Assembly (NCBI RefSeq): GCF_001447785.1
Contig: NW_015172014.1
Coordinates: 268,868-332,867 of the forward strand
Origin: Gekko japonicus
Lineage: Eukaryota
DNA length: 64,000 nt
Reading direction: 5' to 3'
Of this stretch, positions 3,001 through 9,000 are shown piece after piece. Positions within the stretch are counted from its first letter, which is position 1. Each line of letters begins with the position of its first letter. The position numbers were made by a program.

Positions 3001-6000
3001 TCGGTGGTGACTGAGAAAAGCCCGGCTGGCTCAGGCAGATGTTCTCCAGGCTAAACAGCGTGGGAGTTTTGAAAACATCCCTGTCCGTCCTTTAACTGCC
3101 CATAGTGGCCTGTTTTGGTCCCTCTGCCGGTGTGGTCTGGCTGCTAACCTGATCACCGTCCTGGTTCGCTTGCACTTGAGGCCTTGGGACTCCTTCTGTT
3201 GCTGGGAGGGTTGCGTCAGTGCTTAGTGCTTGTGGCCCTTACACACTCAGGGAAATGCTGGTCGCCATTTTGGGATCAGGAAGCAATTGTTCTCCAGGCC
3301 AGTTTGGCCAGGGATCCTGGATGGTCGTCCCTCCCCTTTCTGGGCATAGAGCAGGGATCACTGGGGGCATGGGGGGGGGAGGTATTTGTGAATTGCCTGC
3401 AGTGTGCAGGGGGTTGGACTAGATGACTCTGGAGGTCCCTTCCAACTCTATGATTCTATGATTAGGAACAGTCGGAGGACCGATTTCTTTTGATGTTCTT
3501 CCGTCAGTAGACAGACCTTGCTCAGCCCAATGCACACCTTGTCATTTATTCACAATGAATGTTTTGATTTCGGAGGGCAGCCGTGCTGGTCTGCAGTAGA
3601 AGAGGTGGATTCGAGTCCCGCAGCACCTCAGAGACCAACCAGGTTTTCAGAGCGTGAGCTTTTGAGAGTCAGAGCTCCCTTTGCCAGATACAAGCTGGAA
3701 GGGAGATCTCTGAGCCCTTATAGAAGGCAGGAGGGGTGTTGCAAAGAAGGAGGGACTCGGGATGCAGAAGTACAAGGCGCATTGATATCAGCGAGGTTAA
3801 GGCAGAGGAGAAACGCTGTGGGGGTAGGAAACACATACCTGTAGTCAGACAGGTGGGAGGACAGTCTTCCAGGTCATCCTGTTGCTGACCTAGGAGTGGC
3901 AGTACTCAAACAGAGAAGCTTCAAGAGGAGATTACAATGTGAGATCTCGGGTTCAGTATGATAGACTTCCCCAGGGATGAATGGGGACACAGGGTATTTA
4001 TCTCCCCTCTTGTAATCAAGATGATTGCATTCTGCATTAAGAACTTCAGAAGAGCCCTGCTGGATCAGAGCAGGGAGGGTCCATCTAGTCCAGCACACAG
4101 ACACCAACCAGTTCCTCTGGAGGGCCAGCAACAGGGCATAGAGGCCGAGGCCTCCCCCTGATAAGAACATTGGAAAAGCCCTGTTGTATCAGAGCAGTGA
4201 GAGTCCATCCAGTCAAGCATCCTGTCTCACACAGAGGCCAACCAGTTCCTCTGGAGAGCCAGCAGCAGGGCATGGAGGCTGAGGCCTTCCCCTGATGTTG
4301 CTTCCTGGTTCTGGTGTTCAGACGATTAGTGCCTCTGAATGGGGAGGTTCCTTTCAGTCACCGTGGCCAGTAGCCACTGATAGACCTGTTTAGAGATGTA
4401 AAATTTCCGGAAATTTTGAAGCTCGGAAAAAAACGGAAATTTTTGGAAAAATTAAAAAAATGCTACATTAGCATTTCTTTTGTCTTTTCTAGATTGAAAG
4501 TCATTCTGTTACTTTAGGAACATAAAATATACGGACATTTTTACTTGGCATGAAATTATCACAACTAGCATATTAAAAATATAGTGTATCCAAACAATTA
4601 TTTCAAACAGAATACCCACCCACATGCAAAAACAAAACTTTTTTATTTTCTTCTGACAATTGCACCTCCTAAAGGAAGAAATGCATCTTGTTCTTGCATT
4701 GGAGGGTTCAGTTTGTAACCTAGGACTTGCTTGTCCTCAGTGCACAGAAATTAGATCAATCTGATACCATATATATATATTTTAGAAATGATTTGGAAAA
4801 TATTTGAACACCTTGTCTTAAAATATTTTATTCGTCGTGTTAAAATAAAATGTTCCATAATCAATTTTTTCTTCTTTTTTCAATTTTTCGGAAAAAAACC
4901 AAAAAGGCTTCAGGGAAAAAAACGGAAAAAAAGTTTTTCCCCGAATTTTTCTGGTTTTTCCCCGGGCCTTCACATCTCTAGACCTGTCCTCAATAAGTCT
5001 GCCTGGACCCCCTCCCTTTTTTTTTTTTGAAAATGTTATTGTTTTTCCATACTACACACAACAACTATAGGTTAAGATTATGCTAATGAGTTCCCCTAGC
5101 TCTTTTTCTACGAAATGACCCCTGACTATAACTATGGGAAATGGGAAAAGGACGAACTAATCTATACAACTACTTGATGGGGGAAGGAAACTACCATTCT
5201 AAATTACTTCATCTACTGGATTTGGGGGAAGGGAAAAGACTAATACATGTCACGATCTGGTTAACTAGACGTAAAGCTGTCTATTCCTGTGGCCATCACG
5301 ACATCCTCGAGCAGCAAATTCCACATTTTAGTCACTCTCTGTGTGAGGAAGTATTTCCTCCTGCATCTAGACTCCCGTCATTGCAACACGCCTTCCATCT
5401 TGGGTTGTTGTCGGTAGTCATTAAGGACTGTTGTCTCAGGTTGCTGTACCATGATGGCTTTCGGGATCCCCTCGGCTGGACCGGGCAGGGCGGTGGCCTG
5501 GCCCTGGGTGACTTTGCATCCTCGGAACTGGTGGCCCGGCTGGCAGCGGCGACACGGGGACCCTCCACCATCGTGCTGGACTCGCTCAGCTGGCTGCTCC
5601 TTCGCTTGCCGTTTCCTCTCGTCTGCCAGGTCCTTGCGCAGCTGCCCAGGAGGGCAAAGGTAGCAGGTGAGATCCAGACGAGCAGAGGGCAAGGCTGCAG
5701 TGGGGAGAGAACGGTGGCGCATCTAGACTCCCGTCTTTGCAACATGCCTTCCATCTTGGGTTGTTGTGGGTAGTAATGAAGAACTGTCGTCTCAGGCTGC
5801 TGTACCATGATGGCTTTCGGGATCCCCTCGGCTGGACCGGGCAGGGCGGTGGCCTGGCCCTGGGTGACTTTGCATCCTCGGAACTGGTGGCCCGGCTGGC
5901 AGCGGCGACACGGGGACCCTCCACCGTCGTGCTGGACTCGCTCAGCTGGCTGCTCCTTCGCTTGCCGTTTCCTCTCGTCTGCCAGGTCCTTGCGCAGCTG

Positions 6001-9000
6001 CCCAGGAGGGCAAAGGTAGCAGGTGAGATCCAGACGAGCAGAGGGCAAGGCTGCAGTGGGGAGAGAACGGTGGAGACTTCGTCACGCCCCCCCACGCCAC
6101 CCGGTCTCAGGTTATCCTCTTAACGGGGGCTGTTGTCTAAGTAGCACTCTGCAGCAGGGTTCCCCAACATGCGGCCCATGGGCACCGTGCGGTCTTCCGA
6201 CGCCTCTCTTGGTGCCCACCAAGTGCTTTAGAATGTGGGTGGAGCCAAATGAGGCTTTTGCCCAGCAAGGCTTCTGATTGGCTGTGCAGATTTTTTAAAA
6301 TGTTGCTTTGAAGAAGAAGAGGAAGAGATTGGATTTATACCCCGCCCTTCACTACCCGAAGGAGTCTCAGAGCGGCTTGCAATCCCATTCCCTTCCTCTC
6401 CCTACAACAGGCACCCTATGAGTTAGGTGGGGCTGAGAGAGCTCTTTGGAGAACTACTCTGGAGAGAACGGCTCTGAAAGAACTTGTGGCTGACCCAAGG
6501 TCACACCAGCATTTGCATGTGGAGGAGTGGGGAATCAAACCCGGTTCTCCCAGATTAGAATATGCACAGCAGGTGCTCCCACAGCACAAGACACTTCACA
6601 GGGTGGCTGAAGAAAGCCGTGGCAGCCATTTTGTGTCTACGTCCTCCACGCTGTGTCAGAATTTCCAAAGGTGCCCCTAGGCTCAGAAAGGTTGGGGGAC
6701 TCTTCCTCTACAGACGTAGAGGATGGTATGGCCAGGCCCAGGACTCTAGGGTTCCTCTAAAGGAAAACTGAATGATAAGGAGGCATCGTTTCCAGCAGTG
6801 CGAATCAACAAGCCATGAATGCCTCTGAGCACGTAGAGAGTGCCTGAGTAACCACTGCCCGCACACGTCTGGGATTAGCGTGAGAGCGGGCATGGTGTAG
6901 TGGTAGAGTGTCTGGTTAGGACCTGGGAGGCCCAGGTTCGAATCCCCACTCTGCCATAGAAGCTTGCTGGGTGATCTTGGGCCAGTCACAAACTCTCAGC
7001 CTCACCTACCTCACAGGGTTGTTGTGAGGATAAAATGGAGGAGAGGAGAACGCCGCTTTGGGTCTCCATTGGTGAGAAAGGCAGGGTATAAATGGAGTAA
7101 ATGAATAAATTAGGGCAGGAGTCTTCTAGGTCAGATCCCAGGCTTGAGAAGAAGCGGAGGAGGAGACTGGGTTTTACCCCACCCTTCACTACCCGAAGGA
7201 GTCTCAAAGCAGCTGACAAATTCCTTTCCATTCCCCCTCCCCACAACAGACACCCTGTGAGGTCGGTGGAGCCTAGAGAGCTCTGACAGAAACTGCTCCT
7301 TTTCAAGGACAGCTCTTATCAGAACTTGTGACTGACCCAAGGTCATCCAGCAGCTGCAAGTGGAGGAGGAGTGGGGAATCAAACCCTGTTCTCCCAGATT
7401 AGAGTCCAAGCTCCTAACCACTACACCAAACTGGTTCACTGTGTTGATCTGCCAAAATGAATTCCTGTTAGGAATTTCTGTACTTCCGCAGGAGGAGCTT
7501 TGTGGGACGAGGGGTCTGTATCCTGTGGTGGAGAGATGCTCCGTGAGAAGGAATCCGTCCTAAAGCAGTCCGTGGTGGGGCTCAGAGGTGCTTGAAAATC
7601 CCCCTCTTGGGCCTTGGGAAATTTGTACTTCTCCTGTTTCGAAGGGGTAATATTATATGTCGAGATGCCAGGGTTATTGGGGGTGTGTAGACGGGGGACA
7701 GCAGGAGTGTGTAAGTTCTGGCCTCTGTGCCTTTGAGATGGGCCTTCTGGGGCGTCAGTCTAGACCGGACGAACCTTTGTTCTGTTGTGCCTGTTGTGGG
7801 GAGGGGAAGGGAAAGGAGTCTGTAAGCCGCTCTGAGACTCCAAGTGAAGGGCAGGGTATAAATCCAGTCTCTTCTTCTTCTTCTGATTCGGGAGAGCGGC
7901 CCTGACATTGCTGGCCCACCCGATTCCAGCTGGGCTTGTGTAGGGGAAGCTGCCGCCAAGGAGCACAGCTGACAGGTCGTTCCTGACACTCCTCTCCTTG
8001 GTAGGCCTGAAAATCACTCGGATCGTGGCCCTCCTTCATGGCGATCTGCACCAGCTGGGCCAGCTAGAGGCCCTCCACACCTTGGCCCGCGTCGTGGTGA
8101 AAGTCGCGCCAGCGCCAGAGGCCGTGCCGGGAGGGGACGGAGCCGCCCGTGTAGCTGCTACACTGCACAAGAAACGGGGAGGCAAAGTGATGCAGAAGGT
8201 GAGGGCTGCGGTAATGCCGGAGTCACCATATCCCCTCTTCTTCTTCTTCTTCTTCTTCTTCTTCGTCTTCGTCTTCGTCTTCTTCTTCTTATTATTATTA
8301 TTATTATTATTATTTTCGATTTATAGCCCGCCCTCCCCGCAAAAGCGGGCTCAGGTCGGGTCACAGACAGGCATACGCCCACACATAAAAACATTTTAAA
8401 AACCATTTAAACATTATATGACATTACAAAATTACATATATAAAGCGCTCCAGATATTCCACAAAGATGACGAACTTACTGCTGCTCTACTAGCTCAGTG
8501 TCCTCTGTTCCGGACAATGCCGGCGTTCTTTCCTCCAGGGCCAGGTAATGATGGTACCATAGTGGCGGCTCCTACTCAAACACCTGGCGGAAGAGCTCCG
8601 TCTTGCAGGCCCTGCAGAACTGCATTAAGTCCCGCAGGGCCCTGATCTCCTCCGGGAGCTTGTTCCACCAGGTAGGAGCCGCCACCGAAAAAGCCCTGGC
8701 CCTGGTAATGGCCAGCCTGATCTCCTTCGGGCCTGGTATTACCAGGAGATGTTTCGCACCCGACTGTAGCTGAGGGGGAGGGACACATTCTTGGCTGTGG
8801 TTGGCATGAGAGGCGATTGGCGTCCCTCCTGGCCCACGCTGCTGCCGGCTGAGTTCAACCTTGGGCTCTGCCTGGGCCTGGTTGGTCACGATGCGGGACC
8901 AGGAAGGGATGTGGATACCTTGACTGGGTTAACAAACTACTTCGAACTGGTGTCCCTCAAAGCTGCCATAGCAAGGCCTGGATTTGAACCTGGGCCAGGC

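What the first reader, a model, noticed from the sequence alone, without database searches (positions are those of the whole stretch)
5363..6073. Tandemly duplicated ELP5 coding exon: candidate mutually exclusive exon pair or NMD switch
A 227-nt exon is present twice (5440-5666 and 5796-6022), each copy with an intact AG and GTGAGA, separated by a spliceable 129-nt intron. Since 227 is not a multiple of 3, including both copies shifts the frame. Productive mRNA therefore needs exactly one copy. The copies differ by one synonymous change and Ile/Val just before the conserved LDSLSW motif. There are 7 substitutions in the 77-nt acceptor-side intron, 2 in the exon and none in the 51-nt donor side. 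This asymmetry fits either a real duplicate with diverged branch/acceptor signals or a low-quality read end/haplotype mis-join.
Basis: partly seen in the sequence, partly recalled or inferred. Interest (0 to 1): 0.65.

Follow-up and report, generated by a model that had tools for sequence, protein, structure and literature searches.

The report
Duplicated gecko ELP5 exon, probably misassembly
A coding exon of the gecko ELP5 gene appears twice in a row in this draft genome, but the second copy is most likely an error of short-read assembly rather than a real splicing switch.

Summary
A 355-nt unit (5363-5717) is repeated head to tail at 5719-6073, with 9 mismatches and one odd base (5718) between the copies. 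Each copy holds a 227-nt ELP5 exon with AG and GTGAGA intact.

The window is not human. It matches the Illumina draft assembly of Gekko japonicus: NCBI's predicted G. japonicus ELP5 agrees with every exon and uses copy 2 only.

I read the duplicate as a false exon gain, confidence about 0.78. My grounds:
- The assembly was built with SOAPdenovo and SSPACE.
- The window has 11 N runs and several other near-identical local duplications.
- Seven of the 9 differences fall within 53 nt just after the junction (scan P about 0.001).
- The exact blocks of 128 and 147 nt are probably longer than a read.
- Including both copies would frameshift a gene whose product is a core Elongator subunit.
- All 38 orthologous proteins carry the exon once.

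No reads, long-read assembly or RNA data were within reach, so a real young duplication (about 0.2 in all) is not excluded. One lead favours it weakly: an upstream intron segment pairs with copy 2's acceptor side only.

The parts
5363..5717 (+). Duplicated unit, copy 1 (355 nt): 77 nt of intron, the 227-nt exon, 51 nt of intron
5718..5718 (+). Single base C at the junction. It matches neither the base before copy 1 (T at 5362) nor the base after copy 2 (A at 6074).
5719..6073 (+). Duplicated unit, copy 2 (355 nt), 97.5% identical to copy 1
5440..5666 (+). ELP5 exon, copy 1 (Ile variant, TTG Leu). Not used in the NCBI G. japonicus protein.
5796..6022 (+). ELP5 exon, copy 2 (Val variant, CTG Leu). 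Its 75 codons are identical to the NCBI G. japonicus ELP5 protein P0001.
5667..5795 (+). 129-nt interval between the exon copies, GT...AG. It would be an intron if the duplication were real.
5736..5788 (+). Block holding 7 of the 9 differences (counterpart in copy 1: 5380-5432). It starts 18 nt after the junction.
5272..5374 (+). Copy of a dispersed repeat (76% to 13294-13398, 84% to 10530-10580). Its 3' end lies about 12 nt inside the left edge of the duplicated unit.
5041..5065 (+). Intron segment complementary to 5760-5784 (copy 2 acceptor side, 21 of 25) but only 17 of 25 to the copy 1 counterpart 5404-5428
2867..2949 (+). Upstream ELP5 exon. Its last two bases CA, together with the G that starts either copy, give the Gln codon.
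8005..8198 (+). Downstream ELP5 exon

Best explanation
The second copy is a false exon gain, an artefact of the short-read draft assembly of Gekko japonicus. The animal most likely has one 355-nt stretch here. Two overlapping pieces of assembly both cover the exon: one ends near 5717 and the other begins near 5719. They were laid end to end instead of being merged. I infer that the overlap went undetected because the first 80 nt of the downstream piece differ from the upstream piece at 8 positions. Those differences could be allelic (a divergent haplotype block, giving a 'heterotype' duplication) or poor sequence at a contig or gap-fill end (a 'homotype' duplication). The Ile/Val and Leu-synonymous differences would then be heterozygous sites or errors. 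The gene would have one copy of this exon, as the NCBI model and all orthologues do. What is shown: the duplication, its anatomy, the assembly type and the company it keeps. What is inferred: the way the join was made.
For: (1) The window is the Illumina draft of G. japonicus. P0001, NCBI's predicted G. japonicus ELP5, matches every exon-internal residue of the window and comes from a 1.28-Mb scaffold. That assembly was made from HiSeq2000 reads with SOAPdenovo and SSPACE (passages of PMC4673495). It has a contig N50 of 29.6 kb and 335,470 contigs (Table 1 of PMC10776941).
(2) The window has 11 N runs in 64 kb.
(3) Five other local direct duplications of 96-100% identity lie in the same 61 kb of called bases: 1-127/152-278 (100%), 12247/12732 (98%), 19780/20245 (98%, second copy starting at the first base after N run 20192-20244), 29824-30044 (96%) and 36126-37716 (96-100%).
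(4) The differences are not spread evenly. Seven of 9 lie within 53 nt, starting 18 nt after the junction. The scan statistic gives P = 0.0012. Counting intron positions only, all 7 fall in the upstream 77 of 128 nt, P = 0.025.
(5) The copies share exact blocks of 128 and 147 nt. These are longer than a HiSeq2000 read (read length recalled, not seen in the paper), so only scaffolding or gap filling could have written this layout, not contig assembly.
(6) One unmatched base sits at the junction.
(7) The left edge of the unit lies at the end of a dispersed repeat, where short-read contigs tend to break.
(8) False exon gains and tandem false duplications at contig boundaries are a described class of error in vertebrate assemblies (passages of PMC8081667 and PMC9516828).
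(9) Both copies have the same donor and comparably weak acceptors, with 9 of 17 and 8 of 17 pyrimidines. By default both would be included, giving a frameshift and a stop at 6017-6019 in a gene for a core Elongator subunit.
(10) All 38 ELP5 proteins retrieved match the exon exactly once.
Against: No N run lies between the copies; the nearest is at 9440. Ko et al. list a gap between the pair as a usual mark of false duplication. The 2.5% divergence, and 13% within the 53-nt block, is high for ordinary allelic variation. The join is clean and exactly head to tail, as a real tandem duplication would be. The copy 2 version of the difference block pairs better with an upstream intron segment than the copy 1 version does, which an error process would not be expected to produce. 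The other duplications in the window are not proven artefacts either, and some lie in SINE-like repeats. Read depth, junction-spanning reads and an independent assembly could not be examined.
Confidence: 0.78

Rival explanations
1. A real but very young tandem duplication of 355-356 bp exists in the sequenced animal, fixed or polymorphic in G. japonicus. It has no evolved function. Transcripts that include both copies are frameshifted and removed by NMD, and the gene works through transcripts that use one copy. That copy is probably copy 2, which keeps the ancestral Val. Copy 1 is on its way to becoming a pseudo-exon.
For: The arrangement is clean and head to tail with no N between the copies. 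Copy 1 carries the derived residue: Ile, against Val in 6 of 7 gecko proteins. Its acceptor side holds 7 of the 9 differences, as expected if one copy were being silenced. The NCBI model uses copy 2.
Against: AG and GTGAGA are intact in both copies, and copy 1's pyrimidine tract is no weaker (9 of 17 against 8 of 17), so nothing visibly silences it. The downstream intron part has 0 of 51 differences against 7 of 77 upstream (Fisher P = 0.04), which is odd for neutral drift after a duplication. A short-read assembler would more likely collapse a real 97.5% tandem repeat than resolve it. The density of similar duplications in this window points to a systematic cause.
Confidence: 0.16
2. The pair is a functional mutually exclusive exon pair or NMD-coupled switch. 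The 227-nt length forces a one-of-two choice. A long-range RNA helix between 5041-5065 and copy 2's acceptor side (5760-5784) loops out copy 1 or masks copy 2, and so sets the ratio of Ile isoform, Val isoform and unproductive double-inclusion mRNA.
For: The two exons have the same length and phase, with intact splice sites, and 227 is not a multiple of 3. The helix pairs 21 of 25 positions, is specific to copy 2, and appears in the MFE and centroid structures of folds of 771 nt and 1401 nt.
Against: The isoforms would differ only by Ile/Val, at a site that is V in 18, L in 12 and I in 8 of 38 squamate and other orthologues, so no functional difference is evident. The pair cannot be conserved, because the introns are 91-100% identical. 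The helix score is reached by 3.3% of 600 random segments and was found post hoc. The 771-nt fold is no more stable than shuffles, z = -0.07. The 129-nt interval gives no steric exclusion. A search for ELP5 together with 'mutually exclusive exons' returned 4 cancer splicing surveys, seen as listing only, with none about such a pair.
Confidence: 0.04

Closest known systems
False exon gains and tandem false duplications in earlier vertebrate assemblies (Ko et al. 2022, PMC9516828; Rhie et al. 2021, PMC8081667; passages read). Examples named there are CACNA1H and GABRG2 in the earlier zebra finch assembly.
   Same: An exon with its intron flanks is repeated on the same scaffold at near identity in an unphased assembly. 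The copies differ at a few sites that may be allelic. The gene model picks one copy.
   Different: Here no gap separates the copies, and the unit is only 355 nt. The defining tests (read depth, haplotype k-mers, comparison with a curated assembly) could not be run.
Mutually exclusive exons born by tandem exon duplication, with exclusivity enforced by frame and NMD (general knowledge, recalled; no paper read for it here)
   Same: Adjacent homologous exons of equal length and phase, both with splice sites, and a length that is not a multiple of 3.
   Different: Known pairs are conserved across species and encode clearly different peptide segments. Here the introns are nearly identical, the peptides differ by Ile/Val, and no transcript evidence or conservation exists.
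Docking-site/selector RNA pairing that chooses among duplicated exons, as in insect Dscam1 exon 6 (recalled)
   Same: An intron segment upstream of the cluster can pair with sequence just upstream of one exon variant.
   Different: There is only one selector-like partner, marginal statistics, no covariation data and no second species.

Membership tests
False (assembly-made) tandem duplication / false exon gain | About half the diploid depth (heterotype) or very low depth (homotype) over each copy | not testable with these tools
   No reads are available. The criterion comes (PMC9516828, Discussion passage).
False (assembly-made) tandem duplication / false exon gain | A gap between the duplicated pair on the same scaffold | tested here: not met
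   There is no N in 5363-6073 and the nearest N run is 9440-9636. A closed gap would leave no trace, so this is weak evidence against.
False (assembly-made) tandem duplication / false exon gain | Single copy in an independent, long-read or curated assembly of the same species | not testable with these tools
False (assembly-made) tandem duplication / false exon gain | Comes from an unphased short-read assembly that shows other such duplications | tested here: met
   HiSeq2000 reads assembled with SOAPdenovo and SSPACE; 11 N runs; five other local duplications of 96-100% identity in the window.
Mutually exclusive exon pair | Adjacent homologous exons of the same length and phase, each with splice sites | tested here: met
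Mutually exclusive exon pair | A mechanism that forbids joint inclusion, or makes it unproductive | tested here: inconclusive
   Frame: met, since 227 nt leads to a stop at 6017-6019. Steric: not met, since the interval is 129 nt. Both donors are GTGAGA, so there is no U2/U12 incompatibility by eye. RNA pairing: one marginal candidate.
Mutually exclusive exon pair | Transcripts that use each exon alone | not testable with these tools
   No RNA data. The one G. japonicus protein model uses copy 2.
Mutually exclusive exon pair | The pair is conserved in related species and encodes distinct peptide variants | tested here: not met
   All 38 retrieved ELP5 proteins match the exon once. No isoform pair differs in this exon, and the copies differ by Ile/Val only.
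ELP5 / Iki1 (Pfam PF10483) gene | Sequence similarity of the exon to ELP5 proteins | tested here: met
   35 hits at E <= 0.001, best 1.5e-40. Thirty-four carry precomputed PF10483, and the one that does not is a 135-aa fragment named ELP5. The 75-aa exon alone matches no Pfam model at E <= 0.1 and no ELP5 chain in the PDB.

The most novel reading that the evidence does not exclude
The duplication is real and species-young. Gekko japonicus ELP5 would then carry two frame-incompatible copies of one coding exon. A copy-specific long-range intron helix (5041-5065 with 5760-5784) that loops out copy 1 decides which copy is used. That would be a mutually exclusive pair, policed by NMD, caught at birth.
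Probability: 0.04. Interest if true: 0.55.

Novelty: not a real feature. Interest (0 to 1): 0.15.

Why it matters
If it is an artefact, as I think, the finding matters only as a caution. Near-identical tandem exon copies in short-read draft genomes should not be read as new splicing switches or exon gains until depth or a long-read assembly confirms them. This window shows how often such copies occur in this one assembly. If the duplication were real, it would be a rare snapshot of a tandem exon duplication at its origin, in a gene for a core Elongator subunit. It could show how a cell copes with two frame-incompatible copies before they diverge.

Tried and rejected
- Pfam on each exon copy alone: 0 families at E <= 0.1.
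- PDB sequence search with the exon: 5 chance-level matches, best E 0.067 to an antibody chain, and no ELP5.
- I searched the large protein set with the unspliced genomic frame 5132-5770. I hoped for raw open frames from independent Gekko data that would show either the single-copy flank or the junction. Only annotated ELP5 proteins came back (35 hits), so this gave no independent view.
- A literature search for gap-closer-made tandem duplications (then) and for SSPACE's handling of negative gaps found only the general notion of negative gaps and artificial duplications, nothing about the exact behaviour. My recollection that SSPACE puts a single n between contigs it cannot merge, which would explain the lone base at 5718, stays unverified.
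- I looked for a coding exon in the 36.1-37.7 kb duplication as a second false exon gain. It holds only SINE-like frames.
- I considered a template-switch mutation as the source of the difference cluster. I rejected it because the four changes are interleaved with four remaining mismatches.
- Chance is rejected as an explanation of the repeat.
- Orthologous or second-assembly DNA could not be checked.
- Supplementary tables of the two Gekko genome papers were not seen. They may give read lengths, gap-closing steps and heterozygosity.
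Full report
**What is there**

The sequence holds a head-to-tail direct repeat. Unit 5363-5717 recurs at 5719-6073: 355 nt, 9 mismatches, no indels, 97.5% identity. One base, C at 5718, sits between the copies. It matches neither the base before copy 1 nor the base after copy 2.

Each unit carries 77 nt of intron, a 227-nt exon (5440-5666 and 5796-6022) and 51 nt of intron. 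Both exons follow an AG and are followed by GTGAGA, and the interval between them is 129 nt. Seven differences lie in the acceptor-side intron, at 5380, 5389, 5412, 5419, 5422, 5426 and 5432. Two lie in the exon: 5441 T/C, a synonymous Leu change, and 5570 A/G, Ile in copy 1 and Val in copy 2. None lie in the donor-side 51 nt.

**Whose gene and whose genome**

- The 75-codon translation of the exon matched no Pfam model on its own and no ELP5 chain in the PDB.
- In the large protein set it found 35 proteins at E <= 0.001. All were squamate or tuatara ELP5. Thirty-four carry PF10483, and the other is a 135-aa fragment named ELP5. The best was 'PREDICTED: elongator complex protein 5 [Gekko japonicus]', E 1.5e-40.
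- tblastn of that protein (P0001) against the window gave one HSP per exon: 1501-1569, 2867-2950, both copies of the exon, 7998-8198, 10723-10830, 11263-11364 and 13924-14007. Every exon-internal residue was identical.
- Copy 2's 75 codons are 100% identical to P0001, while copy 1 differs by the Ile.

I therefore take the window for the draft assembly of Gekko japonicus, not for human sequence. Neighbouring frames with a NIF-phosphatase domain (34.8-35.3 kb) and a DIX domain (60.2-60.7 kb) fit the usual vertebrate neighbourhood of ELP5. The gene names CTDNEP1 and DVL2 for these are recalled, not tested.

**How that assembly was made**

The genome paper says Illumina HiSeq2000 reads were assembled with SOAPdenovo and SSPACE (passages of PMC4673495). 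A later paper tabulates version 1.1 as Illumina only, with contig N50 29,574 bp and 335,470 contigs. It also reports a new PacBio/Hi-C assembly (passages and Table 1 of PMC10776941).

The window has 11 N runs in 64 kb. It also holds other local direct duplications of near identity:

| Position | Identity | Note |
|---|---|---|
| 1-127 / 152-278 | 100% | Copies separated by 24 G-rich bases |
| 12247-12421 / 12732-12906 | 98% | |
| 19780-19933 / 20245-20398 | 98% | Second copy begins at the first base after N run 20192-20244 |
| 29824-30044 | 96% | Period 110 |
| 36126-37716 | 96-100% | Unit of about 0.8 kb |
| 20519-21040 | 93% | Older-looking |

With the ELP5 unit, that makes six duplications of at least 96% identity in about 61 kb of called bases. 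By my recollection of structural-variant densities in vertebrates, this is far more than real young duplications would give. I could not measure that baseline here.

**Why I think the exon copy is an artefact**

- *The differences are clustered.* Seven of 9 fall within 53 nt that begin 18 nt after the junction. A scan statistic gives P = 0.0012. With the exon set aside, all 7 intron differences fall in the upstream 77 of 128 intron positions, P = 0.025. Counted from the junction there are 8 differences in the first 80 nt of copy 2, one in the next 130 and none in the last 147. That is the pattern of a poor or allelic contig start that kept an overlap from being recognised. It is not the pattern of even drift after a duplication.
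- *The exact blocks are too long for reads.* The copies share exact blocks of 128 and 147 nt, longer than a HiSeq2000 read as I recall it. The paper passages I saw do not give the read length. A de Bruijn contig could not have written both copies, so the layout must come from scaffolding or gap filling.
- *The left edge sits at a repeat.* It lies about 12 nt inside the end of a dispersed repeat (5272-5374), a usual place for short-read contigs to break.
- *The error class is known.* Rhie et al. 2021 describe falsely duplicated exons and tandem copies at contig boundaries ('heterotype' and 'homotype' false duplications), and Ko et al. 2022 describe 'false exon gain' (passages).
- *The biology argues against two copies.* The donors are identical and the acceptors are about equally weak: 9 and 8 pyrimidines of 17, against 12-17 at the five other acceptors examined. 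By default both copies would be spliced in. Frame arithmetic then puts a TAG at 6017-6019, upstream of four more introns, in a gene for a core subunit of Elongator (its importance is recalled).
- *Orthologues have one copy.* All 38 ELP5 proteins retrieved match the exon once, although a protein model could not hold both copies in any case.

**What speaks against the artefact reading**

- No N run separates the copies, and Ko et al. list a gap as a usual mark of false duplication.
- The 53-nt block differs at 13% of positions, which is high for alleles.
- The junction is clean.
- There is one unexpected thing. The intron segment 5041-5065 is complementary to 5760-5784 on copy 2's acceptor side (21 of 25). 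All four copy-specific bases in that stretch raise the complementarity, while the copy 1 counterpart pairs at 17 of 25. The helix appears in the MFE and centroid structures of folds of 771 nt and 1401 nt, and it loops out copy 1.

I give that helix little weight, for four reasons. It was found post hoc. Of 600 random 77-nt segments of the window, 3.3% reach the same score against their own upstream 800 nt. The 771-nt fold is no more stable than shuffles, z = -0.07. And if copy 2's version is the older one, four later changes landing on paired positions is unremarkable; by my own arithmetic P is about 0.47. It does hint that copy 2's version is ancestral. That agrees with Val being the residue in 6 of 7 gecko proteins, and V in 18, L in 12 and I in 8 of all 38.

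**Rivals**

A real, species-young duplication without evolved function gets about 0.16. A working mutually exclusive pair or NMD switch gets about 0.04. For the switch, the isoforms would differ only by Ile/Val at a variable site, the pair cannot be conserved, and the 129-nt interval gives no steric exclusion. A search for ELP5 with 'mutually exclusive exons' returned four cancer splicing surveys, none about such a pair (listing only).

**What stayed unchecked**

- No reads, RNA data or eukaryotic genome DNA were within reach.
- Supplements of the Gekko papers were not seen.
- A search of the protein set with the unspliced genomic frame found no independent open frames across the junction.

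The decisive tests are a comparison with the 2023 PacBio assembly, read depth and junction-spanning reads, and a PCR across 5300-6150.

**Verdict**

Interest is low.

Noticed in passing
window 5041-5065 and 5760-5784: An intron segment is complementary to copy 2's acceptor side (21 of 25) but to copy 1's counterpart at only 17 of 25. The helix is in the MFE and centroid structures of two folds and would loop out exon copy 1. The statistics are marginal: 3.3% of random segments score as high.
   Followed up: partly
window 1-278: 127 nt are repeated at 100% identity (1-127 = 152-278) with 24 G-rich bases between, about 1.2 kb upstream of the first ELP5 exon found. It looks like another unmerged overlap. 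It may extend beyond the window start.
   Followed up: partly
window 19780-19933 and 20245-20398: 154 nt are repeated at 98% identity. The second copy starts at the first base after N run 20192-20244, and the copies diverge afterwards. It overlaps a borderline 5S rRNA match at 19885-19987 (39.6 bits against a gathering score of 38), so it may be a 5S-derived repeat.
   Followed up: partly
window 36126-37716: A unit of about 0.8 kb is duplicated at 96-100% identity. It carries two identical tRNA-Ala(GGC)-like genes on the minus strand (36467-36538 and 37235-37306) set among SINE-like repeats. No coding exon lies inside.
   Followed up: partly
window 9713-10392: A 120-nt satellite-like array of 5.7 copies (93% matches) lies just after N run 9440-9636, inside an ELP5 intron. 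Related single units lie at 4068-4296 and 13087-13160.
   Followed up: no
window 12247-12421 and 12732-12906; 29824-30044; 20519-21040: Further local direct duplications: 175 nt at 98% with spacing 485, period 110 at 96%, and period 261 at 93%. All lie in non-coding sequence.
   Followed up: no
window 1501-1569: The NCBI G. japonicus ELP5 model (293 aa) starts inside this exon with MTDS..., while the other gecko proteins (308-309 aa) have about 15 more N-terminal residues. tblastn found no match for these in the window. The first coding exon may be unassembled, too short to detect, or upstream of the window.
   Followed up: no
window 34829-35263 and 60193-60675: An exon frame with a NIF-like phosphatase domain (E 6.7e-08) and one with a DIX domain (E 2.3e-16) lie here. 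With frames at about 44.6 kb and 53.4-55.7 kb that I recall as GABARAP-like and PHF23-like (not tested), the gene order resembles the mammalian ELP5 neighbourhood.
   Followed up: partly
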